A DNA stretch of 64,000 bases from Candidatus Omnitrophota bacterium (GTDB lineage: Bacteria; Omnitrophota; Gorgyraeia; Zapsychrales; Fredricksoniimonadaceae), in NCBI GenBank assembly GCA_028865345.1, contig JAGWKL010000007.1, positions 6,089 through 70,088 on the forward strand, read 5' to 3'. Below the pieces are notes generated by a model, which did not search any database, was not told the DNA's origin, and saw only the letters and a program-made list of their open reading frames with translations. Made by a program: the position numbers and the translations under genes. This document shows positions 24-18,116 of the stretch, piece by piece (the first letter of the stretch is position 1; each line of letters starts with the position of its first letter).

Positions 24-2813
24 TCACGACCCTCCGGGGCCGCTTGAGGGCGAAGAGCCGATGCTGTTGCAATCCACAAACTGGATGCAATAATCGCTGT
101 CCCCGGTCCCTGAAGAAGAAGGACAGCTCCTGGATGCCACATACCTGGCGCAGGCACGGCTTTCAACACCCAAAGGAAGCAAAGCCGAGACCGCGGCGGT
201 ACAGTTCGCCTCATTGCCATTGGCGACGGAATCAAGCTGTCCGTCGCCGTTGTCATTAAGCATAAACGCCTGGCCCAGCGCTGTCCGGTCCGTCGACAAA
301 AAGTTTCCATTTTCCCATGCCAGCCCCTGCGCTGTCTGGGGCGTGAGGCCGAATCCTATGGGCGTCGCAACCCCGTACGGCGCGTAGGCCGTAGTGGCGC
401 ACGCGCTGAAAAGATCGGAGTTTTGGTTGGTGTTGGGGTTGTTGCCGACGGCATTGGGATTGCTGAACATGAATTGCCACAAGGAACGCCCGTTGGGAAA
501 TTTAATGGAACTGCCGTGGGGCTGGTCCCAGCGCTGGACTTCAACATACACATACCCGTCACGTTGGGTGAGCTCAAAATTTTGGGTGAACCCCCAGTCA
601 GAGGTGTACGACCGGATCCACGGCAACCTGTCCTGAAATGCGCCATAGCCTTGACTGCGTCCCGGCGCATAGGCCTGGACCTTGACAAGGTGCGCGCAGC
701 CCACAGGCACCGAGTTTCCGTTACTGTCCGTGGTAGTGCACGCCGGCTGGCCGGTGGTTGACGGTTTGTCTCTCCAGCCATAAACGACCCAATTGGGCAA
801 TGCGCCGGGGGAATTTGTACTGCTCGTGCCATTCGCACGTTCGTACATGATCTGAGAGGCAGGTCCGCCATCGGCACATGCATTCCCGCTGCAAGGCTTG
901 AAGAAATTATGAAGGGCATTGTCCGCCTGGGCGGTGATGCGCTCAAGGGCCACGGCCCTGGTATAAGCGTCATTCAAATAAGCATACCTCAAAGCGAATT
1001 TCGGGGCCTCATCGGTAAACAGGGTAATATTGTCCTGCGTCCATTGGGCGAAGCTCCCCGAAGAGTTGGGGTCGCAGGATGCCGGGGCGGTGGTATACGC
1101 GGGCGGAGTGCCGCATGCCGCGTTGCTTTCAGAAGGGCATACGCAATTCCCGTTGCTGTTGCTGGGGGAACCTTTATAACACGCCAGCAGGGAGCGTCCC
1201 AGGACCGACGAAGAACACTCGCTTGGCAATGGCAGGCTCCTGGAACACGTCGAACTGCCGCATGCAACTCCACTGGCGCATTTATTTGACCCGCCGCTGC
1301 CGCAGACACTGCCGTCCGCACATCCCCCGGTCACCACATTCAGGCAGGTTTGATAATTGTAAATGGGACCGTACTTGTATTGGCCGGCCGCCCAGTCAGC
1401 ATAACTCTGCGTACAGGGAGTGCCGTCATTGCATTTATCGGCGCCTCCGCTGCCGCAGGCGCTGCCGTCTGGGCACACATTACATCTGTTGGGATCGCTG
1501 TCAAATGCAGGCGGCGATATAACGGAAGTCCCTAACACGTCAGGCTGGCACTGGTCCGGCAGGTTTGTCACGCAGCTTTTATTGACTGTCAGGGAACTCA
1601 GGCAGGCGGAATAATTGTTGGCAACCCCCGTTGCTGTTGTTATAGCCCCCGGACCCGCATTATATTGCAGGCAGGCCAGGACATGGGGCAGGTCTCCCCA
1701 ATTTCCTGTGGGGGCATTTTGGTTGATATAATATTCTTCCGTAGTGCCTGTTAAATCGGACTCTGCAGGAAGGCACCAGACAGCATTCTCAGAAAACCAG
1801 TTCTGTAAGCTGGAGGAATACTTATGGCTTACTGAACCTGCGGGTGCATAGCTGTTGGAATTAAGCCAATTTGTAATCACCGTGTTCCAGTCCTTGAGTT
1901 TATCCACCGGCGGACTGACGTAGGGATTGTAAATGCTCAACAGGCGTCCCGGGGAATTTAACTTACAGGAGTCTTTATTGCACGTACAGTCGCCTGTGCC
2001 GTTGGGACCGCTGCACACGGTGTCTCCGGCCGGGCAGCCTCCCGTGCATTGGGGGGCGATCCAGTCGGCGATCTGGTCATATTCACTGTCAAAGGTGGAA
2101 TTGGTGACATCCAGGGTTTTGGACAAAAACGCCTGGGCAAATTTATCGAAGTCCGAAAAAGTATGCAGGACACTGTTCAGGCTGGAAACGGTGCTTTGGG
2201 CAGAGGGCGGATTGGGCGGCGCCGGCGGCGGAAATGCACAGCCGGAACCGCTGCATGTGTTGTCAAACCACTCACACTCACCGTCGGGGTAGGACGATGT
2301 GCTTTCATTATACGGCCATGTCGTTGAACACATCTGGTTGTCGCCCGCTACCCAATAGTCGCCCGGACCGCTGCCCAGAGAACCGATCTGTCCATAGTAT
2401 GAAAATGTTCCGTCCAGCGCGGGATTGGAGGCATACGGGGCAGGGGGGGTGTAAAACGCCGGGTCCCCCACTTTATCGATGACGCCGTTGAATGTCGTTG
2501 ACGATGAACCCGCGCCGGCGCCGAGGTCAGCGGTTATGCTATAGGTCCCATTGGGAGCGTTTGTCCAGTCATAGGTGAAGGTATTGGTGGGGGCGCTGCT
2601 GCTGACCGAGGCCAAAACATTCCCATTATCATAGAATGTCACTTCACTGACATTGCTGTAGGTTGCGGCTGTGAGCGTGATTGTGGCCCCTGACGGATAA
2701 TTGATATAATCGCTTGACACGCAGACCGGCGTTGACGACGATGGCGTACAAGCCGCCTGCACCGGTGCCTGGGCTGAGAAAAACAAGGCCATAATCAAAA
2801 ACCAATATCGCAT
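24..2813 (-). CDS. Secreted cysteine-rich repeat protein (~929 aa), putative pilus-associated adhesin
   Basis: Track ORF 24..2984; likely true start at MRYWFLIMALFFSAQAPVQA (signal-peptide-like) 57 codons in, preceded by AAAGGAATGGGAAAT RBS-like sequence. Ser/Thr/Asn/Gly-rich with repeated C-x-DGS-x-CGSGG-x-KC-x-G-x-x-C modules. Last gene of the Tad-like locus. Confidence 0.5.
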   Translation of the reverse strand: MRYWFLIMALFFSAQAPVQAACTPSSSTPVCVSSDYINYPSGATITLTAATYSNVSEVTFYDNGNVLASVSSSAPTNTFTYDWTNAPNGTYSITADLGAGAGSSSTTFNGVIDKVGDPAFYTPPAPYASNPALDGTFSYYGQIGSLGSGPGDYWVAGDNQMCSTTWPYNESTSSYPDGECEWFDNTCSGSGCAFPPPAPPNPPSAQSTVSSLNSVLHTFSDFDKFAQAFLSKTLDVTNSTFDSEYDQIADWIAPQCTGGCPAGDTVCSGPNGTGDCTCNKDSCKLNSPGRLLSIYNPYVSPPVDKLKDWNTVITNWLNSNSYAPAGSVSHKYSSSLQNWFSENAVWCLPAESDLTGTTEEYYINQNAPTGNWGDLPHVLACLQYNAGPGAITTATGVANNYSACLSSLTVNKSCVTNLPDQCQPDVLGTSVISPPAFDSDPNRCNVCPDGSACGSGGADKCNDGTPCTQSYADWAAGQYKYGPIYNYQTCLNVVTGGCADGSVCGSGGSNKCASGVACGSSTCSRSLPLPSECSSSVLGRSLLACYKGSPSNSNGNCVCPSESNAACGTPPAYTTAPASCDPNSSGSFAQWTQDNITLFTDEAPKFALRYAYLNDAYTRAVALERITAQADNALHNFFKPCSGNACADGGPASQIMYERANGTSSTNSPGALPNWVVYGWRDKPSTTGQPACTTTDSNGNSVPVGCAHLVKVQAYAPGRSQGYGAFQDRLPWIRSYTSDWGFTQNFELTQRDGYVYVEVQRWDQPHGSSIKFPNGRSLWQFMFSNPNAVGNNPNTNQNSDLFSACATTAYAPYGVATPIGFGLTPQTAQGLAWENGNFLSTDRTALGQAFMLNDNGDGQLDSVANGNEANCTAAVSALLPLGVESRACARYVASRSCPSSSGTGDSDYCIQFVDCNSIGSSPSSGPGGS

Positions 2814-2833
2814 ATTTCCCATTCCTTTTGCCG

Positions 2834-5575
2834 CTAACTGCAAACTCCTGTGCCGAGGTTGCATGATTGTGTCGAAGTGCAACAATTGGTACTGGCGCCG
2901 CACTGGGTGGTGCCGCTGGGACACCCGCATGAGCCGCTCTGACATATTTCTTGACCCTGGCATACATGTCCGCAAGTGCCGCAATTGTTGTTATCATTCA
3001 ATGTTCCGCTGGCACAGGCACAGGCGTTGCTCTGGCATGTTTCTCCGTTTTGGCACACCTTTCCACAAGTACCGCAATTGTTGTTGTCGCCTAAATTGCC
3101 GCCGGCACATTTACATTCGCCTGTTTGGCTCCCGCTTGCCTGAGTGCCTGTAATCGTCCAGCTGGTGCCGTTAAAGGTTGTCTCGTAGCATGTTTGGCCA
3201 TTCGTGCACGCACCCGTGCCGCAGGTGACTCCGCAGGCGTCTTTGCCGCAATTGTCAATTGCAGCACAATAGGAATAATTGTTAACGATCATGGTGGTGG
3301 CATATGCGGTATATCCGCAACTATGGTCAGTCGGATTGGTGGCGCAATAGTTGGTTACAGCACCGGTTGCGCCGCCGGTATCATAAGATTGTACCTCCGA
3401 AAGAGGGGCATCGGTCGCTACAGCCGTCACGTTATAATTCCCCGCCATCGTCACTGTACAAAGCCCGGTCGTTTTGTTGGTCACACTCGTAGGGATTGCA
3501 AATTGGCCGGGATTGGTGTTGATTTGCACAATCGGAGCCGGAAACGCCGGGTTCGGCGTGAACAGGGTGTCGTCTAATGTGCTGGTGCTTCCCGTTGGAT
3601 CGGTCATATTAATATCAACCCCGGTAATGGTGCCGGGGCTGGGTTCAGAGGCTGTGGCGAGCATGCTGATTGAGGAAGAAGGTCCCGCTGTATAGATGTT
3701 CCCGCTGAAGGGCGAATTGATCACCATGGAAATGTTGGGTCCAACGACAATGGTCAGCGTGTTCGATGAAGAGCCGCTGCCGCCGGCAAGGCTGTCGGTC
3801 AGATAATTGACACAGCAATCCTCTCCCGAGCAGGAATAGGGCAGGGTCAATTGGTTTAAATCCGGAAAATCCGCGGACGAAGGAGAGTTGACTGCGGGGA
3901 CTGTGCCTCCGGAATACGTGCCTGCGACACACCAATGGTACCAGGGCTCCGGCGTCAATGTAAAATTGTTGCTTTGGGTGGTATTGATACTGTCCACCGC
4001 CGGACTGAAAAAATTCGGAGTTTTATACGCGTTTGGACTTGCCAACGGATCCGGGAATGCCGGATTGGTGTCCATCAGCCAGAAGAAGGGATAGACCCCA
4101 TTAGGGAACGCCGGTGAGGTCCCTTCGACCGTCATTCCACCCAGGGGCACTGTGGTCGGCGTTGATTGCATCAATTGCTGGTCGCGGCCGTATTGGTCCA
4201 GGAATGACAGCCCCCTGCTGTATTGTTGAAAGCCCGAATCGTAAATAAAGGGATAGGAAGAACCGTAAGGATTGTTCGATGTGCATTGCGCCGGCGCTGC
4301 CTGACCCGCATTATCCGGGTCCCCGACCAGGGCCGAACAATCCGTATTGATGTACGCGTTGGGGTTGGTGGCGCAAACATCCGGAAGGGTCCCTCCTGCG
4401 CTCACATAGGGAAGGCAGGAAGAGGGCCGCAAAGGCTTGTATGTCGTCTTTCCGTTGTCGGTGACGGCCACAGCCACCGGCTGGCAGCATGGATTGCAGT
4501 AAGGATTGCTTGTGTCCGTGCAGGAATCATTTAACTGAAAACTAAAGTCATTGTTCACCATCACCCTGCAAGAAGGTGCCGACAAGGAAGCTGAATAAGT
4601 GGTATACGCAGCGTTGCAGGAATTGCAAAGCGGATCCAACGCGACAGGCTGACCGGTATTGGGATCGGTGAGGTTACTATGCTCGTATACGTTCTGGGCG
4701 CATGTCACCTGCGCCGGTATAGGCCCTGTACAGGCAGGGTCTGCGGAATCCACGGCACAATAATCGATGCCCGCATTCGGATTGAAGCAGCTCGGGTTAA
4801 GAGGGACCCCTGTCTGGCTTGTTTTGCCATCCACGCTTCCACTGTCCGTATAATTTTGCTGGCAGGTCTGGCCGTTGATGAATTCACTCAATTGATTATA
4901 GAAAAAAACCAACTGTGGAATAAAGCCGACGTTTTTGTTCAGCATTTTCAAACGCTCGGTATAAAAAAACCCGAACCGCGAGATGGTGTCGTTGGCCCTG
5001 CCGCTGGTGACCCCGAATTTTCCATTGGCATTTTCATCGAAATAATCCGTAATATTGACCTGGTCCGTGGTCGCGCCCTGCAAAGCCGGCCCCACGGCCC
5101 CTTCATAAAACTGCTGTGTGATCGGCTGGCTTTTCTGCAACTTGTTCCATAGTTCGCACATCCCGGGCTGGATCACAGTCAACTGAAGCACCAGGGTCAC
5201 AATAGACATGACAAGGGCCAGGGTCAGGCAGGCCCCCAGAAATGTGGTCACCAGCGGAGTCGCCGATCCCCAGGAAACGATCTCTATGACTATGATGATA
5301 ATAATGACTATCACCATGATCAAATCCATCAATAAGCCGCTCATTCCCGATATCTTGTTGGTGTCCTGCAAATTCGTCTGCTTCTGCATTTCACCATAAC
5401 TGGCCACATCCGACGCAAGCAGGGATGCGGCCTGGTCGGCGTCCACGGTCAACAGGCTTTTCATCTGGGCGATGCGCCCCCAGTTGTAGGTGATGGCCAG
5501 GAAAATCAGCGCCATCGCCGATAATAAAACCAGGATGAGCGCTGTCTGTCCTTTTTTATCCGTTGTGTTCATCAT
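2834..5575 (-). CDS. Tad-domain (TadG-like) giant protein, 913 aa, with cysteine-rich C-terminal modules
   Basis: N-terminus KKGQTALILVLLSAMALIFLAITYNWGRI matches the Tad/TadG N-terminal TM-anchor pattern. Long Asn/Thr/Ser/Cys-rich extracellular region. C-terminus has duplicated NNNCGTCGxVCQxGExCQS Cys modules. Confidence 0.5.
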   Translation of the reverse strand: MMNTTDKKGQTALILVLLSAMALIFLAITYNWGRIAQMKSLLTVDADQAASLLASDVASYGEMQKQTNLQDTNKISGMSGLLMDLIMVIVIIIIIVIEIVSWGSATPLVTTFLGACLTLALVMSIVTLVLQLTVIQPGMCELWNKLQKSQPITQQFYEGAVGPALQGATTDQVNITDYFDENANGKFGVTSGRANDTISRFGFFYTERLKMLNKNVGFIPQLVFFYNQLSEFINGQTCQQNYTDSGSVDGKTSQTGVPLNPSCFNPNAGIDYCAVDSADPACTGPIPAQVTCAQNVYEHSNLTDPNTGQPVALDPLCNSCNAAYTTYSASLSAPSCRVMVNNDFSFQLNDSCTDTSNPYCNPCCQPVAVAVTDNGKTTYKPLRPSSCLPYVSAGGTLPDVCATNPNAYINTDCSALVGDPDNAGQAAPAQCTSNNPYGSSYPFIYDSGFQQYSRGLSFLDQYGRDQQLMQSTPTTVPLGGMTVEGTSPAFPNGVYPFFWLMDTNPAFPDPLASPNAYKTPNFFSPAVDSINTTQSNNFTLTPEPWYHWCVAGTYSGGTVPAVNSPSSADFPDLNQLTLPYSCSGEDCCVNYLTDSLAGGSGSSSNTLTIVVGPNISMVINSPFSGNIYTAGPSSSISMLATASEPSPGTITGVDINMTDPTGSTSTLDDTLFTPNPAFPAPIVQINTNPGQFAIPTSVTNKTTGLCTVTMAGNYNVTAVATDAPLSEVQSYDTGGATGAVTNYCATNPTDHSCGYTAYATTMIVNNYSYCAAIDNCGKDACGVTCGTGACTNGQTCYETTFNGTSWTITGTQASGSQTGECKCAGGNLGDNNNCGTCGKVCQNGETCQSNACACASGTLNDNNNCGTCGHVCQGQEICQSGSCGCPSGTTQCGASTNCCTSTQSCNLGTGVCS

Positions 5576-5835
5576 TGGCTCGAGTTCCCGTTAGTAATGC
5601 TTCCGTGATAAACCGCGGACATCGGCAAAAAATAATAATCGTCTTGAGAGTTCAACTCATTCGACGGATCCAGGCTTTTGGTCAGTGATATGTCCTGGGC
5701 CACGCGCCGGTTGGCCAGATCCAGCCCCGCCCAGCGGAAAACCATCACCAGGCCGTAAACTATGAACATGATCACCACCACCGCGAAGGTGAATTCAATG
5801 GTCGACTGAGCTTTGGTGTCCCGTACGTTCATCAA
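5572..5835 (-). CDS. TadE-like pseudopilin (87 aa)
   Basis: N-terminus TKAQSTIEFTFAVVVIMFIVYGLV is a TadE/TadF-like prepilin-like hydrophobic segment with conserved E. 4-nt overlaps with both neighbours. Confidence 0.5.
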   Translation of the reverse strand: MMNVRDTKAQSTIEFTFAVVVIMFIVYGLVMVFRWAGLDLANRRVAQDISLTKSLDPSNELNSQDDYYFLPMSAVYHGSITNGNSSQ

Positions 5836-7817
5836 TTCCCTACCTTGTACCGCCCTGATGTGTTTGTCGCCCAGAAATGCCCGCGCAAGTCTTCGATGCG
5901 GCTGCGGACAAAAATCTTGTTCTGGGAAAGATCATAACATGTCGAGGCAATGTTGGTCTGAGAACTAAAACAGTTGTTGGTTATTCCGTCGACACAAACT
6001 TCCACAGGGTTGGGGGTTTTTCCGTCATTGCCCACCGTGGCAAGCGGCGTCGTTCCGTTGCAAAACCGCCCGGTATTATTGCTCAGCTGGATGACCCGCT
6101 GTATCAGGTCGATCGAGTCCTTTTTGTTTTGGCTGCGCACAAACTGGTCGGTTTCAGGGTTATACATTTTCCCATCCTGGATCAACAAATACGTCCCCCC
6201 GCGGTTATCGGTGGCATTGGAGCTGTTCTTGGTAAAGGTAAACACCTGGGCGTTGGCCTGCAAACCGGGCTGCGGACCGCAGGAATTGGCGTCCCAAGCC
6301 CCGTCAATGTCTCCACCATCCGGATCTTCATAAGAAACCACCGGATAGCCGTTTGAGTCCGTGGAAAGATTATAAATGGTGACTTCCTTCAGCCTTCCGT
6401 CTATATCATAGGTCGGATAAACATGGTTGGAACTGCTTAGCCCGATCTCTGCCGCCGAGGTCCCTGCCGTGGCAGCCCATTGCCAGGCAACGTAGGCGCG
6501 CATGCAACTGCCGGGAGGATTGCATCCCGGATTGGGGAATTGATTTATCACGCCCGCCACCGATGTCGATGTTGCTCCATTGCTCCCATAGACCCCCATG
6601 CGCAAAAGATCATACTGCATGACCCCATTGATATTGGTGGATGCTCCAAGGCCGTCGGTGGTGGGATTGCCCCAATAATCAAGCAAAGGCATGTCCGTGG
6701 ACAGTTCTTTATTCATACAAGCTGAAGTGCCGTGCGCAGTACAAGTGGGGGCCGAAGTGCTGAAGGTCAAATTCGAAGAATTGGCCGACCCTCCCGCCCC
6801 GCCGGGATTGGCCACCAGGGTATAAAACAATTTGTATTGCCTGCTGCCCTGCTCGATAATGCCCTCGATCGCCGCTAAATATCCCACAGCCTGTTGCGCA
6901 GTGAGGTGAAATACATTTTCATAAAGCCCTTCAAACGTCGTCCACGGCGTTTGATTCCATGATGCGTTGACCGTCGCTTGAGAGGTAGCTTCATCGCACT
7001 TGCTGGTTGTCGTAGGTGAAATGACATGGGCATTGGCCAGTTCCGTGAAAATAGTACAGGCATTGTTGGCCTCTTGCAGCTCTCTTCCTGCCGTGGTGGT
7101 CGCGGTTATCGGCGCTACCGGAGGATCGTTGGTAACAAGCGCGCTTTCCTTAAGAATGCTCTGGCCTCCCCACTCCCTTTGATTGCGGCAGGTCTGGTTC
7201 ATTTTGCACTGGGCCTCGGCTTTTTGCTGGCAGTCCTGCGGATTTCCGCCGGCCGTCAGGCAATCTTCCTGCTCCTGAGCGGAAGATATCGGCTGGCTGT
7301 TTTTATCGCACATAGCGGTACCGCCCTGGCCCGGCGGATAAATGGTTTTCCCGGCAACATAAGAAGCCATGGTAAACGGGAAATGCTGCCCGTCGATATA
7401 CACATCCATGATGGGCAAACTATTGTCGATATCGGAGGGACTATTGTTATCGATGGGATAAAGAAGGTTATAGGAAAAGGTTCCCGAACCGGAGACCATG
7501 AATGGTGTGCGGTCCAAAGCCCCGTATTTGCCGAAACCGGGAACAAGTCTGTCTTCTACAAAAAGCACCGAGGCGCTGTTATGCGCGGTGACCTGCGGGC
7601 TCATGCCGGGATTGGCCTTGGAATCGTTCCACGAAGCCAGCATGGCCATGCGCATGGCCTTAAAACTGATGTCCTGCTGATAGCCGTTGCTCACAGCAGT
7701 GCGGATGATCGTCCCCAAAATAAAAATGAGGATGGCCCCGAACACGGCAAGCTCGGTGACGGCCTGTCCCGCCGCGGGTGCGGGGCCAGACGCTTTTTGA
7801 AGGTCTCGCTTGGACAT
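5832..7817 (-). CDS. TadG/TadE-like large pseudopilin (~662 aa)
   Basis: Track ORF 5832..7886. Start taken at MSKRDLQ (ATG at 7815-7817, ATGA overlap with the stop of the upstream pilin gene, AGGTAGGG RBS). N-terminus AGQAVTELAVFGAILIFILG is a TadE-like motif. Confidence 0.5.
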   Translation of the reverse strand: MSKRDLQKASGPAPAAGQAVTELAVFGAILIFILGTIIRTAVSNGYQQDISFKAMRMAMLASWNDSKANPGMSPQVTAHNSASVLFVEDRLVPGFGKYGALDRTPFMVSGSGTFSYNLLYPIDNNSPSDIDNSLPIMDVYIDGQHFPFTMASYVAGKTIYPPGQGGTAMCDKNSQPISSAQEQEDCLTAGGNPQDCQQKAEAQCKMNQTCRNQREWGGQSILKESALVTNDPPVAPITATTTAGRELQEANNACTIFTELANAHVISPTTTSKCDEATSQATVNASWNQTPWTTFEGLYENVFHLTAQQAVGYLAAIEGIIEQGSRQYKLFYTLVANPGGAGGSANSSNLTFSTSAPTCTAHGTSACMNKELSTDMPLLDYWGNPTTDGLGASTNINGVMQYDLLRMGVYGSNGATSTSVAGVINQFPNPGCNPPGSCMRAYVAWQWAATAGTSAAEIGLSSSNHVYPTYDIDGRLKEVTIYNLSTDSNGYPVVSYEDPDGGDIDGAWDANSCGPQPGLQANAQVFTFTKNSSNATDNRGGTYLLIQDGKMYNPETDQFVRSQNKKDSIDLIQRVIQLSNNTGRFCNGTTPLATVGNDGKTPNPVEVCVDGITNNCFSSQTNIASTCYDLSQNKIFVRSRIEDLRGHFWATNTSGRYKVGN

Positions 7818-8134
7818 CAGTTCCCTACCTGTGTAGTGCCCGACTTCGTTTCCAAAGTATTCGACGTATCGATCCGGCTTGTCCATTCGCCGTAGGCGCT
7901 GTTATAGCTGCCCGGAGCGACCTGGACAATGGACGTCGCATTGGACTGTGTCGCGTACAGTATATTGGAATTGACCCATTGAGGGTCATACTGGCCGCCT
8001 ATCTCATCTGACGATGATTTCCAGCGGCCCTGAATGCCCCTTTTGACATAGTCCTTCATGGCCACCAGCACTCCGAGGATGATGATCATGATCACCGTGT
8101 ATTCCAGAATTGTCTGTCCTCGTATGTTTCGCAT
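7817..8134 (-). CDS. flp: Flp-type pilin paralog 8 (105 aa)
   Basis: MRNIRG|QTILEYTVIMIIILGVLVAM: Flp prepilin motif G/XXXXEY followed by a hydrophobic helix. Confidence 0.65.
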   Translation of the reverse strand: MRNIRGQTILEYTVIMIIILGVLVAMKDYVKRGIQGRWKSSSDEIGGQYDPQWVNSNILYATQSNATSIVQVAPGSYNSAYGEWTSRIDTSNTLETKSGTTQVGN

Positions 8135-8149
8135 AGGCCTTGGTCCTTA

Positions 8150-8506
8150 TTATTGTGGTGAAAACCCTCCGTTGGTAATGGTGTTGGTCATTGTCACAGA
8201 AGCCTCACTATAACCCGTCGTCGCCATGAAATGAGTGACGCCGCTGCCATTAATATACCCCGTTTCCGCGTTCCAATCGCCGGTGGTGGCGCCCATCTGC
8301 GTATTCGATGCCAGCATAAATCCTGTCTGGGGATTGGTAAAATCCTGGTCGGCGTTCTGCTGACTGCCCACCTGGTCCGCCGTCACCTTGACCAGGCTCT
8401 GCACCCCGCGCTTGATGCCCGTGCCCATATAATAGAGCGCCACCATCACCAGGCTGACGAGGATGGCGTATTCTACTATTGTCTGTGCATTGCGGGTAAA
8501 AACCAT
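8150..8506 (-). CDS. flp: Flp-type pilin paralog 7 (118 aa), Ala at -1
   Basis: MVFTRNA|QTIVEYAILVSLVMVALYY: Flp motif with Ala instead of Gly at -1. Confidence 0.6.
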   Translation of the reverse strand: MVFTRNAQTIVEYAILVSLVMVALYYMGTGIKRGVQSLVKVTADQVGSQQNADQDFTNPQTGFMLASNTQMGATTGDWNAETGYINGSGVTHFMATTGYSEASVTMTNTITNGGFSPQ

Positions 8507-8515
8507 TCAGTCCTT

Positions 8516-8935
8516 TCATGTCGCACAACCGGTCCCGTCACTGCAACACGGCGGCGGATTGGAACTGCTGCATACCGGAGGTAATTGGTGGCTGATGGAG
8601 GATATGTTGCTTGTGTCATTCACGGAACTGATATAGACCGCTCCCAGTTCCCCTGCGCTGCCGTTTGTTATTCCTTGATGATTGTCTGAATTCCGTTGCA
8701 CATCCGAGAAGGTCTGCATGTAATACGGTTCATATCCCCAGGAAACCCCGTTGGAAGCGGCCTGGCAATTGACATCGCAGGCATTGGCCGCCATCTCGAT
8801 CGCAAAGTTCCTGGCATCATGGATCCGCGCCTCAAAGGCCCTCCTCACCAGCACGGTCATAGCTGTCAGGGCCGCAACCACTATGAAGAAAACCATGACA
8901 TGCTCTGCCAAAATCGCTTGACCTTTGTCATTCAT
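8516..8935 (-). CDS. flp: Flp-type pilin paralog 6 (~139 aa) with Cys-rich C-terminus
   Basis: Track ORF 8516..8962 begins at a TTG. Better start is ATG at 8935 (MNDKG|QAILAEH) with AAGGTGAGG RBS. Motif has H instead of Y. C-terminus PPVCSSSNPPPCCSDGTGCAT. Shares ARIHDA and YEPYYMQ motifs with the pilin at 9613..9981. Confidence 0.55.
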   Translation of the reverse strand: MNDKGQAILAEHVMVFFIVVAALTAMTVLVRRAFEARIHDARNFAIEMAANACDVNCQAASNGVSWGYEPYYMQTFSDVQRNSDNHQGITNGSAGELGAVYISSVNDTSNISSISHQLPPVCSSSNPPPCCSDGTGCAT

Positions 8936-8968
8936 GCCCCGCCTCACCTTCTCCAAAGACAAACGGCC

Positions 8969-9166
8969 TCACATCCCATTCGCCGCATTTTCCTGCAAGT
9001 AGGTGGCTGCGTTGAGCATCCCTTGGGTCGTCTGGTTGAACACGCTGTTCAAGCTGCTTTGAAAAGAACCTGTCCCCTTGCCTGTCGTGAACAGAACGAC
9101 CACCACGATCACGGCCGTGACCAGCAGGATGTATTCCACCAGGCTCTGACCTTTACGTGCGCGCAT
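8969..9166 (-). CDS. flp: Flp-type pilin paralog 5 (65 aa)
   Basis: MRARKG|QSLVEYILLVTAVIVVVVLF, canonical Flp motif; AGAGGA RBS. Confidence 0.7.
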   Translation of the reverse strand: MRARKGQSLVEYILLVTAVIVVVVLFTTGKGTGSFQSSLNSVFNQTTQGMLNAATYLQENAANGM

Positions 9167-9197
9167 GCGTTTGTCCTCTATTGACGGCCTATATCAA

Positions 9198-9223
9198 CGA
9201 GGGGGGAAGAAAATCCCCCCCTC
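9198..9223 (-). promoter_or_regulatory. Intra-operon GC hairpin between flp4 and flp5
   Basis: Perfect inverted repeat CGAGGGGGG-AAGAAAAT-CCCCCCTCG (9-bp G/C stem) in the 70-nt gap between the pilin genes at 9236..9574 and 8969..9166. Confidence 0.4.
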
Positions 9224-9235
9224 GTTTGGACTCTG

Positions 9236-9574
9236 TTAGGCGGCGGTGTTCCCTCCCCAGAATTCCTGCTGGGTGTTAAGGATGACCGAGTTCTCCGTCG
9301 TGTTGGTCGATTCACCCGACCCCAAGATGGAAGTCGAGGAATTTCCTGCGTTGAACACTTCTTCTGTATCGCTGGAAGTGTTGACGATCTTGATCACGTT
9401 GGTATTGCCGTCAGAATACTGGTCGCCGATATCGTCGGCGGCGCTCTTCAGGCGCCCCTGCACGCCGCGTTTGATATAGACCTGAAGGGTCAGCAAAGCG
9501 CCGACCACAACGACGATCATTACCGAGTATTCCAGGAAACTTTGACCGCGTTTTTGGTTAAGATATTGCAACAT
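9236..9574 (-). CDS. flp: Flp-type pilin paralog 4 (112 aa)
   Basis: MLQYLNQKRG|QSFLEYSVMIVVVVGALL; GGAGG RBS upstream. Confidence 0.7.
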   Translation of the reverse strand: MLQYLNQKRGQSFLEYSVMIVVVVGALLTLQVYIKRGVQGRLKSAADDIGDQYSDGNTNVIKIVNTSSDTEEVFNAGNSSTSILGSGESTNTTENSVILNTQQEFWGGNTAA

Positions 9575-9612
9575 AGGATTCCTCCTTAAAGATATATCGT
9601 TGAAGTCTTAGG

Positions 9613-9981
9613 TTATTCAGACTGTTGATTCCCGCTGTCATAATTACTGTACGTTTGATTCTCAGACCCGGTCCTGATCCTGTTGTTGGCGGAATCCTGT
9701 GCGACCAAGTCGTGCCCTAAGCGTTTAGCACTAACGCTGTTGCTGGATACGTCATAATTGCTCTGCATGTAATATGGCTCATACTGCGTGTCATTGCCCA
9801 GACCGATATCCGAGTTGCCGGTGGCATTGGCCATATACGTTGCTGCATCGTGGATACGGGCTTGTATGGCGCGCTGGGCATAGGTCTGCATGGCAATGAT
9901 GCCTGCGACCACCAGGGCGATCAAAAGCGCGTATTCCGCGAAGTGTTGTCCTTTTTTATTCTTAAGGAAATTTCTCAACAT
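9613..9981 (-). CDS. flp: Flp-type pilin paralog 3 (122 aa)
   Basis: MLRNFLKNKKG|QHFAEYALLIALVVAGII; GGAGG RBS. Shares ARIHDA..YEPYYMQ motifs with paralog 6. Confidence 0.7.
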   Translation of the reverse strand: MLRNFLKNKKGQHFAEYALLIALVVAGIIAMQTYAQRAIQARIHDAATYMANATGNSDIGLGNDTQYEPYYMQSNYDVSSNSVSAKRLGHDLVAQDSANNRIRTGSENQTYSNYDSGNQQSE

Positions 9982-10027
9982 AAGTTCCTCCTATATTAGT
10001 TCGTAGAGATTTTGTTTAAGCTCCTCG

Positions 10028-10276
10028 CTATTGAGTCGGATTGACACTATAGCCAGAGGGAGCGCCACTGTCGGTACTGGTGTATGCGCCATGTGAACCG
10101 GCATACTGTGACGTTTCACTGTTCATTTCCGTCACCGCCGCGTTGTAGGTGCTGTTGAGCGTGTTCTGGAACGGACCGTTTTTGCTGGTCACAAAGGCCA
10201 CAATAACGATAAGGACCGCGGTCACAACCAGGATGTATTCCACCGTGATTTGACCTCTTTTGTTCTTTATATGCAT
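10028..10276 (-). CDS. flp: Flp-type pilin paralog 2 (~82 aa)
   Basis: Track ORF 10028..10288 starts MEGIM, but GGAGGGGATTATG shows those codons are the RBS. True start is MHIKNKRG|QITVEY at 10276. Confidence 0.7.
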   Translation of the reverse strand: MHIKNKRGQITVEYILVVTAVLIVIVAFVTSKNGPFQNTLNSTYNAAVTEMNSETSQYAGSHGAYTSTDSGAPSGYSVNPTQ

Positions 10277-10348
10277 AATCCCCTCCAAAATTCCCGTACT
10301 GCATCCTCCACGTAAATTAAACGCCGTGTAAAGGAACAGGGAATATAG

Positions 10349-10504
10349 TTAATTCAACGAATCCTCAGTAATCATCTTCTGTTGGGCTTGCACGGAACGG
10401 AACACGTAGGTGCTCAACAGCGCCAAGGCTGCTGAGATCAAGGCCACGACGATCGCGTATTCGATCAAGTTTTGTGCTTTGATACCGTTTAATTTTCGGA
10501 TCAT
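10349..10504 (-). CDS. flp: Flp-type pilin paralog 1 (51 aa), not in ORF track
   Basis: Manually translated: MIRKLNGIKA|QNLIEYAIVVALISAALALLSTYVFRSVQAQQKMITEDSLN. 156 nt ATG..TAA, below the 60-aa cutoff of the track. Canonical-size Flp with Ala at -1. First gene of the pilin array. Confidence 0.6.
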   Translation of the reverse strand: MIRKLNGIKAQNLIEYAIVVALISAALALLSTYVFRSVQAQQKMITEDSLN

Positions 10505-10548
10505 CGCCCCTTACCTTTACGTGCCAGAAGATCAATTAGACCTTCCCC

Positions 10549-10567
10549 CTGCTTGTTGTTCAAGCAG
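10549..10567 (-). promoter_or_regulatory. Inverted repeat in 5' leader of first flp gene
   Basis: CTGCTTG-TTGTT-CAAGCAG (7-bp arms) about 45 nt upstream of the flp1 ATG. Confidence 0.3.
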
Positions 10568-10606
10568 GAGCGAGGAAAAACTAAAACACTAACTGGTCTT
10601 TCATCT

Positions 10607-12525: not shown

Positions 12526-12861
12526 TCATAGCCGGACCTGGTCACCGATCCGTGTTTGAGAAGCAATGATGGTCCCCGCCGGCAATTCGATGGCGTAGGA
12601 TGCCCGGAAGAATACCGGCGACAGGCGGAAAGGTTTGATCCCCTCGCAAAGCCCCACCACCTTGTCCTTCCGGTCGCAAAAGATCACATCAATAGGAAAT
12701 TTCATAAAAAACATATGGATGGATTCGCAATGGGGAATGACCAGGGCGTGATTCAGGGGGAGTTGGGTCCTTCCAAGCAATCCCTTCGAACGCTGCCAGA
12801 AATTCCGGGCGGTTTCGACGGAGGAGGCAATAACGGTGTCGCGGGTTGCGTTACAGATCAT
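12526..12861 (-). CDS. DUF192 (COG1430) family protein (111 aa)
   Basis: Sequence family resemblance only. 4-nt overlap with the upstream CpaE-CpaF gene suggests translational coupling. Confidence 0.45.
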   Translation of the reverse strand: MICNATRDTVIASSVETARNFWQRSKGLLGRTQLPLNHALVIPHCESIHMFFMKFPIDVIFCDRKDKVVGLCEGIKPFRLSPVFFRASYAIELPAGTIIASQTRIGDQVRL

Positions 12862-15023
12862 ACGCCGGCGGGGGCCTCAAAAATGGTCTTGCTGATCGAA
12901 ATCCCGCGGGTGGTCAGGTCTTCAAAACATTTGGGCACATAGCCGGTGGCCGCGTATTCCCCCATGTTCCGGCCTTCTGCGTCGACGCCTTTCTGGACGA
13001 ACACAAAGATGTCCTTGATCTCCGGAAGACCTTCCACCATCTTTCCGGTCAGCTCGGAGATCTGGGTCACCTTGCGCGACCCGTCGGAAAAACGGTTGAT
13101 CTGCACAATGATGTGGATCGCTGAGGCGGCCATCTCATAAATAGCGCGCAGCGGCAGTTCGATGCCCGACAAAAGGACCATGGACGACATACGCGACAGG
13201 GTGTCCCTGGTCGTATTGGCATGCAGGGTCGTCAGGGACCCGTCGTGACCGGTATTCATGGCCTGCAGCATGTCCAGCACTTCGGGCCCGCGGCACTCGC
13301 CGATGATGATCCTGTCCGGACGCATACGCAGCGTATTGACGAAAAGCTCCCTGATCGTCACCTTGCCCCGGCCTTCGATGTTGGCCGGACGGCTTTCCAG
13401 CCTCGCCCAATGTGTTTTGACCAGGCGCAATTCCGCTGCGTCTTCGATGGTGATAATGCGTTCATTGTCCGGGATGAAATGGGAAATGATGTTCAGAAGC
13501 GTCGTTTTACCCGCGCCCGTCCCGCCGGAGACGACGATGTTCCTGCGGCCGATAACGCAGGCGTTCAGAAAATCCGCCATGGGCTGCGAAAGGCTTTTGA
13601 ACCGCGTCAGCAAGTCCTCAATGGTATAGCGGTCCTGTGAAAATTTACGCACGGTGATCATGGGCCCGTTCAGGGACAACGGCGGGATGATCGCGTTGAT
13701 ACGGGACCCGTCGGACAGGCGCGCGTCGACCATCGGGGTCGATTCGTCCACACGACGGCCTAAAGGAGCTATGATACGGTCGATCGTGGCGCGGACCTGA
13801 TCGTTGGAAATAAACCGCTTGTTGGTCAAATAAATCTTGCCGTTTTTTTCTATGAAGACCTCGTCTTTATTATTGACCATGATGTCCGTGACGCTTTCGT
13901 CGGCCAGAAAGTCTTCCAGAGGGCCAAGCCCCAAAGCTTCGTCGACGATTTCCTTGACTATTTTAGCGCGTTCCTCATGGGTGGAAAGGAAGGTCCCCGA
14001 GGCCTCCGCCAAAAGCTCGGTGACGACTTTTTCGGCGGCCCTGCGCAGGTTGGCGACTTGGGCAGGATCATTCAAGACCTCCTGCGACATTTTCTGCAGG
14101 TTCATGCGCTCAACCAAACCGTTATGCACGGCGCGCTTGACTTTAATGACCTCGTCTTCCTCTTTTTTGAAATCGACCCCGGCATCGACGCCCGCAGGCG
14201 TGATGCCGAATTTCTCCCAAAAGGCGTTGCTCTTTTGGCCCGATTCATCCCCGGTGGCACGCACCCTGAGGACATCGCTGGCCTGCACATACAGCTTATC
14301 ATCGTTGAGCGCATGGGCGATCTCAAAAAAACATTCCGACACCTTTGCCTTCGGGCTGTCCATGACACAGGGAACGCCCCGGTTGAGGGCGAGGCCCACC
14401 GTCTTGCCGTCAGAAGGTATCAAAGAGAAAACGTCGCAGGCCAGGGCTTTCTTGACCTCCTGCCAGGCGACACCGCCGCGGCTTTCGGCGCGGTTTAAAA
14501 TCAGGTTTACCATCTTCAACGGATAATGCAAGCCCTGGAGGATGTCCAGGCAGGTCTTCACCTGGTAAACCGCCAGGACATCGGGAGTGCCGACCAAAAA
14601 AATGAGGTTGGAAGAATCCAGGACGCTGATGAAGCTTTCACTGAAGGTGCTTCCTCCGTCGACAATAATGCAGTCGAATTGAGGGGCCGCCTTCTTGAAA
14701 AACAGACGCAGATTATCGGAGGTGATGTGGCCGATCTGCTGGGGGGTTCTTACCGCAGGCAGGAAACACAGGCCGCTCGGGTGGGGGATGCATTTGCCCT
14801 TCAGCGTCTCAGGCGATCTCTCCAGGTCCGCCAAAATATCGACCAGGCAAAGCGACGGTTGCAAATTCAGCATGCGCGACATGTCCTGGGAAGCCTGAAG
14901 ATTCAGGTCAACGATCAGTGTCTTTTTGCCCTTAAGGCTAAGCGCACAGGCTATATTGACGGCAATAAAGGTCTTTCCAACCCCTCCTTTGTTGCCGAAT
15001 ATGGTAATGATTCTGGCCGCCAT
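12858..15023 (-). CDS. cpaF: CpaE/TadZ-like ParA ATPase fused to CpaF/TadA secretion ATPase (721 aa)
   Basis: N-terminal ~260 aa: IITIFGNKGGVGKTFIAVNIACALS is the MinD/ParA deviant Walker A typical of CpaE/TadZ. C-terminal ~460 aa: GGTGAGKTTLLN Walker A, GECRG, TGHDGSLTTLHAN His-box are T2SS-E/CpaF/TadA hallmarks. No receiver-like domain. Confidence 0.75.
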   Translation of the reverse strand: MAARIITIFGNKGGVGKTFIAVNIACALSLKGKKTLIVDLNLQASQDMSRMLNLQPSLCLVDILADLERSPETLKGKCIPHPSGLCFLPAVRTPQQIGHITSDNLRLFFKKAAPQFDCIIVDGGSTFSESFISVLDSSNLIFLVGTPDVLAVYQVKTCLDILQGLHYPLKMVNLILNRAESRGGVAWQEVKKALACDVFSLIPSDGKTVGLALNRGVPCVMDSPKAKVSECFFEIAHALNDDKLYVQASDVLRVRATGDESGQKSNAFWEKFGITPAGVDAGVDFKKEEDEVIKVKRAVHNGLVERMNLQKMSQEVLNDPAQVANLRRAAEKVVTELLAEASGTFLSTHEERAKIVKEIVDEALGLGPLEDFLADESVTDIMVNNKDEVFIEKNGKIYLTNKRFISNDQVRATIDRIIAPLGRRVDESTPMVDARLSDGSRINAIIPPLSLNGPMITVRKFSQDRYTIEDLLTRFKSLSQPMADFLNACVIGRRNIVVSGGTGAGKTTLLNIISHFIPDNERIITIEDAAELRLVKTHWARLESRPANIEGRGKVTIRELFVNTLRMRPDRIIIGECRGPEVLDMLQAMNTGHDGSLTTLHANTTRDTLSRMSSMVLLSGIELPLRAIYEMAASAIHIIVQINRFSDGSRKVTQISELTGKMVEGLPEIKDIFVFVQKGVDAEGRNMGEYAATGYVPKCFEDLTTRGISISKTIFEAPAGV

Positions 15024-15140
15024 AATGAATTTTTATTGTACCATATTTTTTGATTTTGTCGCAGATAAAAAAGAGGTCGCTTTGCCTTCCCCCTAACTCG
15101 GGAGGTAGCGTGTCCCTTTGATGAAATTCTAATGGCAAAA

Positions 15141-15300
15141 TTCTTTCTCGGCGTCGGCTCGCAGGGGGGCAAATTTCTTTTGAACATCAGCTTGCACAGG
15201 GGTAAATTCTTTTTGGACATCAGCCTGCAAAGGGGCGAATTCTTTCTCGGCGTCGGCCCTCAGGGGAATAAATTCTTTCTCAACATCTGCCGCCTGCAGT
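15141..15300. repeat. 33-bp tandem repeat (~4.8 copies) forming 11-aa repeats in ORFs on both strands
   Basis: Units TTCTTTCTCGGCGTCGGC..CAGGGG..AAA alternate between A/B subtypes (A-B-B-A-B). Minus frame gives ADxEKEFxPLx repeats (track ORF 15129..15611). Plus frame gives GKFFLxISLxR repeats (track ORF 15132..15476, ATG start, GC3 ~74% versus ~45% on the minus frame). Confidence 0.6.
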
Positions 15301-15429
15301 TCACGGCATTGGGGCCCTTTGGCCTTATCACAGGGGCTTTGTGCGGAAGCGCCCGAAGAAATCTGTGCCCCGCAAGGGCAAGGGACGCAAAGGATCAACC
15401 AGAAAATTACTGTAGTCAGGTACAGGTAA

Positions 15430-17235: not shown

Positions 17236-17240
17236 TGAAA

Positions 17241-18089: not shown

Positions 18090-18116
18090 TTTTCCCTCTC
18101 TTTGTTCGGGTCTTAG

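What the first reader, a model, noticed from the sequence alone, without database searches (positions are those of the whole stretch)
24..5575. Two ~920-aa cysteine-rich, Asn/Ser/Thr/Gly-rich proteins ending the pilus operon, one fused to a TadG-type anchor
Seen in sequence: the gene at 2834..5575 begins with a Tad/TadG-like N-terminal anchor (KKGQTALILVLLSAMALIFLAITYNWGRI). It continues into ~850 residues rich in N, T, S, G, C, with duplicated C-terminal modules NNNCGTCGxVCQxGExCQSxxC.

The gene at 24..2813 has a signal peptide, a beta-rich N-terminal region and repeated C-x-DGS-x-CGSGG-x-KC-x-G-x-x-C modules.

Established knowledge: TadG-family proteins are pilus-associated minor components.

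Inference: these are disulfide-stabilised tip adhesins or matrix-binding proteins displayed by the Tad-like pilus. The Cys-module types are not ones I can assign to a named family.
Basis: partly seen in the sequence, partly recalled or inferred. Interest (0 to 1): 0.7.

Follow-up and report, generated by a model that had tools for sequence, protein, structure and literature searches.

The report
Split TadG-like pilus subunit, Omnitrophota
The two cysteine-rich genes are the two halves of one large, uncharacterised membrane-anchored protein that sits in the pilus/secretion gene cluster of nearly all Omnitrophota (tiny, probably predatory bacteria), and it is most likely the fast-evolving contact module of that machine.

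Summary
Both genes exist as described, on the minus strand: A at 2834-5575 (913 aa, 50 Cys) and B at 24-2813 (929 aa, 44 Cys). The duplicated Cys modules are real. Three parts of the reading need correction.

1. The operon does not end here. Same-species contigs continue with a prepilin-like gene, TadB, TadC and a large ORF. The apparent end is the window edge.

2. A and B are not two separate adhesins. In 145 of 182 family representatives, the A core (aa 1-~608) and the B core (aa ~112-920) are one 1000-1600 aa polypeptide. The split is derived and confined to one subgroup. The Ig and Cys-rich modules are lineage-specific inserts at the fission point.

3. The N-terminus is TadE/G-like only at family level. 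PF13400 matched 20 of 65 members (best E 8.4e-5), but not A itself. It carries a conserved G|Q site without Glu5, followed by a conserved two-helix hydrophobic hairpin.

The family has 743 clusters. Named members are Omnitrophota. It has no Pfam or NCBIfam model. A confident AF2 model (pLDDT 84) has no PDB fold match. A and B are the fastest-evolving genes in an otherwise rigid locus.

Best reading: a TadG/KilN-class cap of the pilus priming/tip complex, here in two chains. Tip versus inner-membrane location is unresolved.

The parts
2834..5575 (-). Gene A, 913 aa. This is the membrane-anchored N-terminal half of the family protein. Its start overlaps the stop of the upstream 87-aa gene.
5477..5575 (-). 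A aa 1-33. Basic leader (KK), nearly invariant G9-Q10 prepilin-type site, hydrophobic alpha1N. Position +5 is Leu, not Glu.
5156..5356 (-). A aa 74-140. Two-helix hydrophobic (transmembrane) hairpin. Its presence is conserved across the family, its sequence is not.
3752..5155 (-). A aa 141-608. The conserved 'A core' ectodomain, with 14 conserved Cys and motifs such as YNPYCDPCCQP and FPNGIYPFFWLM.
2837..3751 (-). A aa 609-913. Lineage-specific junction module: a beta-rich (Ig-like) stretch followed by a Cys-rich tail. Absent from fused relatives such as P0012.
2915..3100 (-). Tandem 31-aa STIG1-like Cys repeat (xDNNNCGTCGxVCQxxExCQSxxCxC), two copies.
24..2813 (-). Gene B, 929 aa. This is the Sec-exported C-terminal half of the family protein. 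It starts 20 nt after the stop of A.
2754..2813 (-). B aa 1-20. Sec signal peptide ending VQA|A. Other B-only relatives also start with signal peptides.
2529..2690 (-). B aa 42-95. Bacterial Ig domain (Big_7), part of the junction insert.
54..2480 (-). B aa ~112-920. The conserved 'B core': a helical subdomain followed by a beta/alpha subdomain. Invariant motifs include IYGWxD, RWDxxH, FPN and AFMLND.
1251..1484 (-). Two C-x-DGS-x-CGSGG-x-x-KC mini-modules (1404-1484 and 1251-1331). They lie in alignment columns occupied by only 2-5 of 61 sequences, so they are inserts.
5572..5835 (-). 87-aa TadE-like minor prepilin (TKA|QSTIEF, Glu at +5). Always immediately upstream of A.
5832..7886 (-). 684-aa protein with a ~40-aa leader, then G|QAVTE (Glu at +5) and a hydrophobic helix. 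A large TadF/KilL-like minor-pilin candidate, always upstream of the 87-aa gene.
7817..10288 (-). Six small prepilin-like genes carrying (K/R)GQxxxEY class III signal peptides.
12858..19139 (-). Core machine genes: PPIase, RcpC/CpaB, secretin fused to TonB_C, and a TadZ-TadA fusion ATPase.

Best explanation
A and B together are a two-chain version of one conserved, Omnitrophota-wide protein of about 1000-1600 aa. It is the TadG/KilN-class 'large minor-pilin-like' subunit of the Tad/T2SS-like machine encoded upstream of the giant genes.

Shown:
- In most relatives the A core and the B core are one polypeptide in exactly this gene position.
- The fused protein models as one confident unit.
- The N-terminus has a prepilin-type leader and G|Q site, a TadE/G-like hydrophobic helix without Glu5, and then a hydrophobic hairpin.
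- The rest is a Cys-rich domain placed outside the cytoplasm. In split forms, the B half carries its own Sec signal peptide.

Inferred:
- The 684-aa and 87-aa prepilin-like genes lie immediately upstream, overlap in their start/stop codons (which suggests translational coupling), and both keep Glu5. Together with them, the protein forms the complex that primes fibre assembly.
- As the only subunit without Glu5, it caps that complex.
- Its large, fast-evolving ectodomain is therefore presented at the distal end of the fibre as the module that contacts the prey, host or substrate.
- In this genome, A stays anchored and B is exported by Sec and docks non-covalently onto A.
- The Ig domains, STIG1-like repeats and CxDGSxC modules are lineage-specific decorations at the fission point.

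Layered confidence:
- One split protein: ~0.95.
- TadG-class part of this machine: ~0.8.
- Tip/cap location and contact role: ~0.45.
For: One split protein:
- The A core abuts the B core in about 40 of 59 first hits.
- 145 of 182 representatives are fused by profile HMM, and the B-only forms start with signal peptides.
- The fused form occupies the A+B slot in loci L003 and L004.
- All 16 split forms lie in one subgroup of 46-48 of 156 representatives.
- The AF2 model of fused P0012 has pLDDT 84.1 and pTM 0.72. A alone gives 55.7 and 0.39, and its aa 460-600 lose confidence.

TadG class:
- PF13400 matches 20 of 65 N-termini, best E 8.4e-5.
- G9 and Q10 are nearly invariant or invariant.
- Position +5 is I/V/L in 139 of 148 members and never E. 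Both neighbouring proteins and all the small prepilin-like genes shown keep E.
- The order p684 > p87 > A(-B) > prepilin > TadB > TadC holds in all 18 loci, as far as their flanks reach.

Contact role:
- A and B are the least conserved proteins of the locus. Against L001: A 51% and B 48%, versus TadZA 86%, TadB 80% and TadC 82%.
- Family length ranges from 920 to 1900 aa, with inserts at recurring sites.

Literature:
- Tip complexes are capped by a subunit lacking Glu5 (PMC10191384).
- Myxococcus KilL/M/N (TadE/F/G homologues) form tip complexes. KilN is large, disulfide-rich and without PDB homology (PMC12075869).
- Bdellovibrio TadG is a tip protein needed for predation, and its machine also has a TadZA fusion (10.64898/2026.07.08.737194).
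Against: - A itself does not reach any Pfam or NCBIfam threshold. The best family score is for other members.
- A conserved two-helix hydrophobic hairpin follows alpha1 in every member examined. AF2 packs it with alpha1 into a helical bundle that resembles four-TM proteins. Known pilins have a single hydrophobic helix. Three membrane helices would be hard to extract into a fibre.
- No pilin-type beta-sheet is evident right after alpha1 in the model's secondary structure.
- Profile comparison with the operon's own prepilins aligns only the leader and GQ (probability 13%).
- No prepilin peptidase was found in the window or in the flanks examined.
- No experiment exists for any member.
Confidence: 0.5

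Rival explanations
1. Inner-membrane scaffold. The protein never leaves the inner membrane. Its three hydrophobic helices anchor a large periplasmic domain that acts as the cytoplasmic-membrane sub-complex or alignment element of the machine (the classical view of TadG). It would link the TadB/C platform to RcpC and the secretin, or anchor the fibre base.
For: - The TM hairpin is conserved in presence but variable in sequence, as expected for lipid-facing helices.
- Pelicic's review lists TadG under 'CM sub-complex' (PMC10191384).
- The locus lacks recognisable PilMNOP/GspLM-type or TadD/RcpB components.
Against: - A and B are the fastest-evolving, most length-variable proteins of the locus. 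They acquire Ig and Cys-rich inserts. That is unusual for an internal scaffold contacting conserved partners.
- The prepilin-type G|Q site is nearly invariant, which an uncleaved anchor would not need.
- Loss of Glu5 fits a capping subunit.
Confidence: 0.3
2. Secretion-pseudopilus cap. The machine works as a T2SS-like exporter for the neighbouring giant protein. A-B, with p87 and p684, would be the GspK-I-J-like cap of a short periplasmic pseudopilus that engages and pushes that cargo through the secretin, and would not be an adhesin.
For: - A giant ORF (14,610-42,417 aa) lies downstream of the locus in L001-L004. In the same species, a large ORF follows TadC.
- West-Roberts et al. describe this as a conserved T2SS-like locus upstream of giant genes (10.1101/2023.11.21.568195).
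- The triad pattern of small (Glu5), medium (Glu5) and largest (no Glu5) mirrors GspI/J/K. This comparison rests on established knowledge and PMC10191384.
Against: - Giant proteins of 15,000-40,000 aa with many TM segments (10.1101/2023.11.21.568195) are unlikely folded T2SS cargo.
- The ATPase is a TadZ-TadA fusion, and the platform is TadB/TadC-like with RcpC. These are Tad features, as in predatory Bdellovibrio (10.64898/2026.07.08.737194).
- The fast evolution of A/B would then have to track the giant protein, which was not tested.
Confidence: 0.15
3. Two independent secreted or surface proteins (adhesins or enzymes) that merely sit in the operon.
For: - Each has its own export signal.
- A and B share no detectable sequence similarity.
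Against: - The two cores are one polypeptide in 145 of 182 representatives, with direct abutment of the cores.
- The fused model is a single confident unit.
- A alone models poorly at its C-terminal core.
Confidence: 0.03

Closest known systems
TadG / KilN large minor pilins of Tad pili (Myxococcus Kil 'Tip' complexes; Bdellovibrio and Pseudomonas TadG)
   Same: - Encoded next to TadE/TadF-like genes inside a tad-type locus.
- TadE/G-like hydrophobic N-terminus with a prepilin-type site.
- Very large C-terminal domain with many predicted disulfides and no solved structural homologue.
- Variable between lineages.
- Found in predatory or host-dependent bacteria whose machine has a TadZ-TadA fusion.
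   Different: - No significant sequence similarity to any Pfam TadG-associated domain apart from the sub-threshold N-terminus, and no vWA domain.
- An extra conserved two-helix hydrophobic hairpin follows alpha1.
- No recognisable pilin beta-sheet.
- The ectodomain is about 900-1500 aa.
- In this lineage the protein is split into an anchored chain and a Sec-exported chain.
GspK-GspI-GspJ / PilK-type cap of T2SS pseudopili and type IVa pili, with PilY1/PilC tip adhesins
   Same: - A triad of minor pilin-like genes in which the largest member lacks Glu5.
- In the split form, a large Sec-exported non-pilin partner (B) would associate with an anchored pilin-like partner (A), much as PilY1 does with minor pilins.
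   Different: - No sequence or fold match to GspK, PilY1 or PilC.
- B is the detached C-terminal half of the same protein, not an independent family.
[quoted passage not shown] 2023) / Omnitrophota Tad complex (Seymour et al. 2023)
   Same: This window is that locus: Rotamase_2 PPIase, RcpC, secretin, GspE/TadA-type ATPase, many small class III signal peptide genes, then GspF/TadB-C and a giant gene beyond the window edge.
   Different: Those papers annotate only the recognisable components, and call the rest 'less well conserved'. The A-B protein, its fusion/fission history and its TadG-like character are not described in the passages I read.
STIG1-like cysteine-rich proteins (Pfam PF04885)
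   Same: A's two C-terminal 31-aa repeats match the D-x-NNCG-x-CG-x-x-C-x-x-G-x-x-C-x-x-G-x-C unit of proteins carrying PF04885. phmmer gives E 4.9e-9 across the whole database, and BLASTP gives 3e-13 pairwise.
   Different: The Pfam HMM itself does not score A's fragment. There are only two repeat units, they are unique to this one species within the family, and they are appended to an unrelated protein.

Membership tests
TadG / TadE-G-like (Pfam PF13400 'Tad') | N-terminal TadE/G-like hydrophobic domain scoring above the Pfam gathering threshold (22.3 bits) | tested here: inconclusive
   A itself gives no hit even at E<=1. P0033 scores 15.4 bits, E 0.025. Among 65 family N-termini, PF13400 is the most frequent match (20 members, best E 8.4e-5). 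Class_IIIsignal matches 4, Flp1_like 3 and TadE 3.
TadG / KilN large minor pilin | Encoded beside TadE- and TadF-like minor pilin genes within a tad locus | tested here: met
   The order p684 (G|QAVTE) > p87 (A|QSTIE; its L004 orthologue hits TadE PF07811 weakly, E 0.045) > A(-B) holds in all 18 loci as far as flanks allow. These genes are flanked by prepilin genes, TadZA and TadB/C.
TadG / KilN large minor pilin | Pilin fold: a single N-terminal alpha1 helix followed by a beta-sheet globular domain | tested here: not met
   The AF2 model of fused P0012 shows H4-65, then a hydrophobic hairpin H77-94/H99-135 and H139-155, with no beta-sheet packed after alpha1. The hairpin is conserved. Coordinates could not be inspected, only secondary structure.
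Type IV filament prepilins (class III signal peptide) | Basic leader, Gly at -1, Glu at +5; cleavage by a prepilin peptidase | tested here: inconclusive
   The leader KK and G9|Q10 are conserved. Position +5 is I/V/L and never E, as in capping minor pilins (PMC10191384). No Peptidase_A24 gene was seen in the window or flanks. Cleavage itself is not testable here.
TadG proteins with a von Willebrand A domain | vWA domain in the periplasmic part | tested here: not met
   No vWA or any other Pfam/NCBIfam domain in A, B or ten relatives. No PDB sequence hit for the family profile.
GspK / PilY1 tip proteins | Sequence or fold similarity to GspK, or to the PilY1 beta-propeller | tested here: not met
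STIG1-like Cys-rich repeat (PF04885) | Match to the PF04885 HMM above 24.1 bits | tested here: inconclusive
   The HMM gives no hit for A aa 744-913 at E<=10. However, all 9 database hits of that fragment carry PF04885 (E 4.9e-9 to 7e-3), and BLASTP to P0189 aligns repeat on repeat at 3e-13.
Bacterial Ig-like domain (Big_7, PF17957) | Match above 24.1 bits | tested here: met
   B aa 42-95 scores 29 bits, E 1.7e-6. Relatives carry Big_7 at the same junction.

The most novel reading that the evidence does not exclude
The A-B protein is a new kind of pilus-tip 'warhead' specific to Omnitrophota. It would be a ~1000-aa disulfide-knotted ectodomain with a fold not seen in solved structures. Its conserved C-terminal beta/alpha subdomain carries the invariant motifs IYGWxD, HxVxV, RWDxxH and FPN, and would be a receptor-binding or lytic head. 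It would work together with the neighbouring giant protein to attach to and breach prey or host cells. The conserved hydrophobic hairpin beside alpha1 would be a new way of seating, or regulating release of, a cap subunit in a type IV filament. The natural fission in this lineage would show that the head can be delivered as a separate Sec-exported chain.
Probability: 0.2. Interest if true: 0.75.

Novelty: new variant of a known kind. Interest (0 to 1): 0.45.

Why it matters
Omnitrophota are widespread, uncultured, ultra-small bacteria thought to be predators or parasites. Their Tad/T2SS-like locus next to record-size genes is the main genomic clue to how they attack hosts.

This work defines the largest unannotated component of that locus as one protein family:
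- 743 clusters at 50% identity.
- No Pfam or NCBIfam model.
- A confident predicted structure with no match among solved structures.

It places the family in the TadG/KilN class and shows it is the fastest-evolving part of the machine. That profile is what one expects of the host- or prey-specificity determinant.

The natural gene fission provides a ready-made domain boundary for expression and interaction experiments.

It also bears on an open question in the Tad field: whether TadG-class proteins are tip subunits or membrane sub-complex parts. This family combines a cap-like N-terminus (no Glu5) with extra membrane helices.

Tried and rejected
- Pfam and NCBIfam scans of A, B, the neighbouring genes and ten relatives gave nothing beyond Big_7 and sub-threshold Tad/TadE hits.
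- The family profile against PDB sequences gave 0 hits at E<=1.
- The idea that A and B are paralogues was rejected. BLASTP best E was ~1.
- The idea that the low-GC stretch at 10.3-12.5 kb is an insertion that displaced TadB/TadC was rejected. The HTH and ~350-490 aa genes are conserved at that position in all loci, and TadB/C lie downstream of B.
- hhalign of family N-termini against the operon's prepilins aligned only the leader and GQ, at probability 13%.
- The search for related loci with the full alignment failed for lack of conserved stretches. With a tighter alignment it returned only 12 loci, so the taxonomic range rests mainly on protein names.
- Single-sequence phmmer misclassified divergent fused members. 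It was replaced by profile HMMs.
- A Biopython NJ tree timed out. It was replaced by average-linkage clustering, which is not a proper phylogeny.
- The Kizina et al. V. archaeovorus proteome paper was not in the library.
Full report
OBSERVATION

Both ORFs exist at the stated coordinates, but on the minus strand. A is 2834..5575 (913 aa) and B is 24..2813 (929 aa). They are identical to hypothetical proteins annotated in Candidatus Omnitrophica MAGs (P0001, P0060).

A has 50 Cys and B has 44. Both are rich in S, T, N and G. A starts MMNTTDKKGQTALILVLLSAMALIFLAITYNWGRI. B starts with a Sec signal peptide (…APVQA|A) and has a Big_7 Ig domain at aa 42-95 (E 1.7e-6).

The duplicated modules are real:
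- A has a tandem 31-aa unit at 3008-3100 and 2915-3007, with 21/31 aa and 64/93 nt identical.
- B has two CxDGSxCGSGGxxKC units at 1404-1484 and 1251-1331, with 14/27 aa identical.

CONTEXT

Read on the minus strand, the locus runs as follows:
- Rotamase_2 PPIase, RcpC/CpaB, and a secretin fused to TonB_C.
- A ParA/TadZ-T2SSE(TadA) fusion, then DUF192.
- An HTH_3 protein and a 405-aa protein with an N-terminal HTH.
- Six small genes with (K/R)GQxxxEY class III signal peptides.
- A 684-aa protein with G|QAVTE, then an 87-aa protein with A|QSTIEF.
- A, then B.

The start/stop codons of p684/p87 and of p87/A overlap, and A and B are 20 nt apart.

The claim that these genes end the operon is a window-edge artefact. 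Two contigs of the same species, carrying an identical B, continue with these genes:
- A 115-aa prepilin-like gene (KKA|VSIIEY).
- Two T2SSF genes (TadB and TadC).
- A large ORF that starts with Peptidase_C39.

In relatives L001-L004 the same order is followed by giant ORFs of 14,610-42,417 aa. The order p405 > prepilins > p684 > p87 > A(-B) > prepilin > TadB > TadC holds in all 18 loci fetched, as far as their flanks reach.

[quoted passage not shown] (10.1101/2023.11.21.568195), and the Omnitrophota Tad complex of Seymour et al. (PMC10066038). Those papers name only the recognisable parts.

A AND B ARE ONE PROTEIN

A and B are not paralogues. Mapping all hits onto A and B shows that about 40 of 59 relatives of A are 920-1400 aa proteins, in which A aa 1-~605 is followed directly by B aa ~100-920. 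In P0012, for example, the A match ends at residue 471 and the B match starts at 471. Two of the five hits for B are such fusions.

An exhaustive HMMER search with the joint profile found 743 clusters (at 50% identity) at E<=1e-3, and 382 at E<=1e-30. Most of the best 150 cover the whole profile in one stretch. With separate A-core and B-core HMMs, the 182 representatives split as follows:
- 145 are fused.
- About 18 are genuine A-only forms, with 100-300 aa non-B tails.
- About 10 are genuine B-only forms, and these start with signal peptides.

All 16 clear split forms fall in one similarity subgroup (46-48 of 156) that also contains fused forms. The ~108 more divergent representatives are all fused. 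Fission is therefore derived. P0004 (1333 aa) is a fused relative that still contains the junction modules.

So A aa 609-913 and B aa 1-~111 are an insert at the fission point. That insert holds the Ig-like stretch, the STIG1-like repeats, the signal peptide and Big_7.

STRUCTURE

AF2 of fused P0012 with the 61-sequence family alignment gave mean pLDDT 84.1 and pTM 0.72. The model shows:
- A 62-residue N-terminal helix.
- A hydrophobic hairpin (H77-94 and H99-135) and H139-155.
- A 370-residue Cys-knotted region with little regular secondary structure but high confidence.
- A helical subdomain (534-793, including a 50-residue helix).
- A beta/alpha subdomain (797-1029).

A alone modelled poorly (pLDDT 55.7, pTM 0.39). 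Confidence was lost at aa 460-600, a region that is confident in the fused context. I read this as a sign, not proof, that the end of the A core packs on the B core.

Conserved Cys come in even numbers in each half. About 14 are conserved in the A core and about 12 in the B core. This is compatible with fission that leaves no unpaired Cys, though that is an inference.

THE N-TERMINUS

G9 and Q10 are nearly invariant or invariant across the family. The residue at +5 is I/V/L in 139 of 148 members and never Glu. In contrast, p684, p87 and all the small prepilin-like genes shown keep Glu at that position.

A itself matches no Pfam model. Among 65 family N-termini, however, PF13400 (Tad, TadE/G-like) is the most frequent match, with 20 members and best E 8.4e-5. 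Class_IIIsignal, Flp1_like and TadE follow. P0033 scores 15.4 bits against a cut-off of 22.3. Profile comparison with the operon's own prepilins aligns only the leader and GQ.

The hydrophobic hairpin is present in every member where it could be delimited (87 of 87), with variable sequence.

THE CYS MODULES

A's NNCGTCG… repeat occurs only in this species within the family. Its only database relatives are proteins carrying PF04885, the STIG1-like family, at E 4.9e-9. BLASTP aligns repeat on repeat at 3e-13. The Pfam HMM does not score the fragment.

B's CxDGSxCGSGG modules lie in alignment columns occupied by 2-5 of 61 sequences. Short CxDGSxC units recur in 27 of 187 members, in varying numbers.

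These conspicuous modules are therefore lineage-specific decorations, not the conserved core.

EVOLUTIONARY RATE

Against orthologous loci, A and B are the least conserved proteins. Identities to L001:

| Protein | Identity |
|---|---|
| TadZA | 86% |
| TadC | 82% |
| TadB | 80% |
| p87 | 78% |
| p115 | 69% |
| DUF192 | 68% |
| p684 | 60% |
| p405 | 56% |
| A | 51% |
| B | 48% |

The same ranking holds in seven other loci. Lengths of the core parts are nearly fixed. A-B ranges from 920 to 1900 aa and p684 from 451 to 727 aa.

MECHANISM

What is shown: one protein, anchored by a TadE/G-like helix plus a hairpin. Its ~900-aa disulfide-rich domain lies outside the cytoplasm, because the B-only forms use Sec. 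It is embedded between TadE/F-like genes and further prepilin and TadB/C genes.

By established knowledge, tip (priming) complexes of type IV filaments are capped by the one subunit lacking Glu5 (PMC10191384). In Myxococcus, the TadE/F/G homologues KilL/M/N form tip complexes in which the large, disulfide-rich KilN, which has no PDB homologue, forms the extremity and varies between paralogues (PMC12075869). In Bdellovibrio, whose machine also has a TadZA fusion, TadG is a tip protein required for predation (10.64898/2026.07.08.737194).

I therefore favour A-B as the cap of a p684/p87/A-B priming complex. Its fast-evolving ectodomain would contact prey, host or substrate. In this lineage the distal half (B) would be delivered separately and would dock on A.

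The main obstacle is the conserved TM hairpin, which no known pilin has. It supports the rival view that TadG-class proteins are inner-membrane sub-complex parts, as listed in Table 1 of PMC10191384. A third reading is a GspK-like pseudopilus cap serving export of the giant protein.

Confidence:
- One split protein: ~0.95.
- TadG-class component of this machine: ~0.8.
- Tip/contact role: ~0.45.

NOVELTY

The locus is known, and TadG/KilN-type tips are known. New here:
- The definition of this family.
- Its fusion/fission history.
- The hairpin.
- The absence of any structural relative among solved structures.

I rate it a new variant of a known kind, of moderate interest.

Taxonomic range: every named member is Candidatus Omnitrophica/Omnitrophota. 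Six of 12 genome loci carry the ENA title 'uncultured Planctomycetales bacterium' but have the same locus organisation. I did not verify their taxonomy.

Noticed in passing
window 22122-34150: This is the chromosomal origin region. On the minus strand are gyrA (22122-24578), gyrB (24594-27038), dnaN (27316-28410) and dnaA (28577-29923). On the plus strand are yidC (30627-32207) and parA (32436-33224). Cumulative GC skew has its minimum near 26-30 kb, and GC drops to 38.5% at 30-34 kb. The Tad-like locus therefore starts about 9 kb from dnaA. Seymour et al. give the V. archaeovorus Tad locus at 12382-29832 of CP019384.1, which suggests a similar origin-proximal position.
   Followed up: partly
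window 15430-17235 (-): The secretin carries a C-terminal TonB_C domain (aa 514-588, E 5.4e-13). The same fusion is present in L003 and L004. What a TonB C-terminal domain does on a secretin is unexplained.
   Followed up: no
window 12858-15023 (-): ParA/TadZ-like ATPase fused to the T2SSE/TadA ATPase (721 aa). It is conserved at 716-721 aa in all loci. The same TadZA hybrid is reported for Bdellovibrio bacteriovorus (10.64898/2026.07.08.737194).
   Followed up: partly
window 10300-12500 (-): This is a low-GC stretch (42% against ~53%) holding an HTH_3 protein (11939-12217) and a 405-aa protein with an N-terminal transposase-type HTH (10734-11951). It looks like an insertion, but the 405-aa gene is conserved at this position in every locus examined (337-493 aa). 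It is probably a locus-specific regulator. The low GC is unexplained.
   Followed up: partly
window 12526-12861 (-): A DUF192 protein sits directly after the ATPase gene (their coordinates overlap by 4 nt) and is conserved there in all loci. Its role in a Tad-like machine is unknown.
   Followed up: no
L017 11378-13921; L018 9098-10805 (same species, beyond the window edge): The ORF after TadC begins with a Peptidase_C39 domain and runs off the contig (at least 848 aa). It is presumably the start of this organism's giant gene. In L001-L004 the corresponding ORFs are 14,610-42,417 aa.
   Followed up: partly
L017 8792-9139 (gene just beyond window position 1): The 115-aa gene after B is another prepilin-like protein (KKA|VSIIEY) with a Cys-rich C-terminal half. 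It is homologous to one or two of the small genes upstream of p684. A/B are therefore flanked by pilin genes on both sides.
   Followed up: partly
window 5832-7886 (-): The 684-aa protein has an unusually long (~40 aa) leader before its G|QAVTE site, no Pfam domain, and variable length in relatives (451-727 aa). It is the second-fastest evolving large protein of the locus and was not modelled.
   Followed up: partly
B-core insert hot spots, e.g. P0033, P0020, P0043, P0061: Runs of short C-x-(D/N)-G-(S/T)-x-C units are inserted in varying numbers at a few recurring sites of the B core. Examples are after WIAPxC and before CADGGPA. They behave like expandable disulfide-hairpin spacers. 27 of 187 members carry at least one.
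   Followed up: partly
L009 (CAVYLG010000003.1, 1.29 Mb contig): In this assembly the locus genes appear fragmented into several ORFs each (TadZA, p405, p684, TadB, TadC). P0044 from the same contig reads through from the end of a p684-like gene and a p87-like gene into A. These look like frameshift assembly errors and not pseudogenes. Not checked.
   Followed up: no
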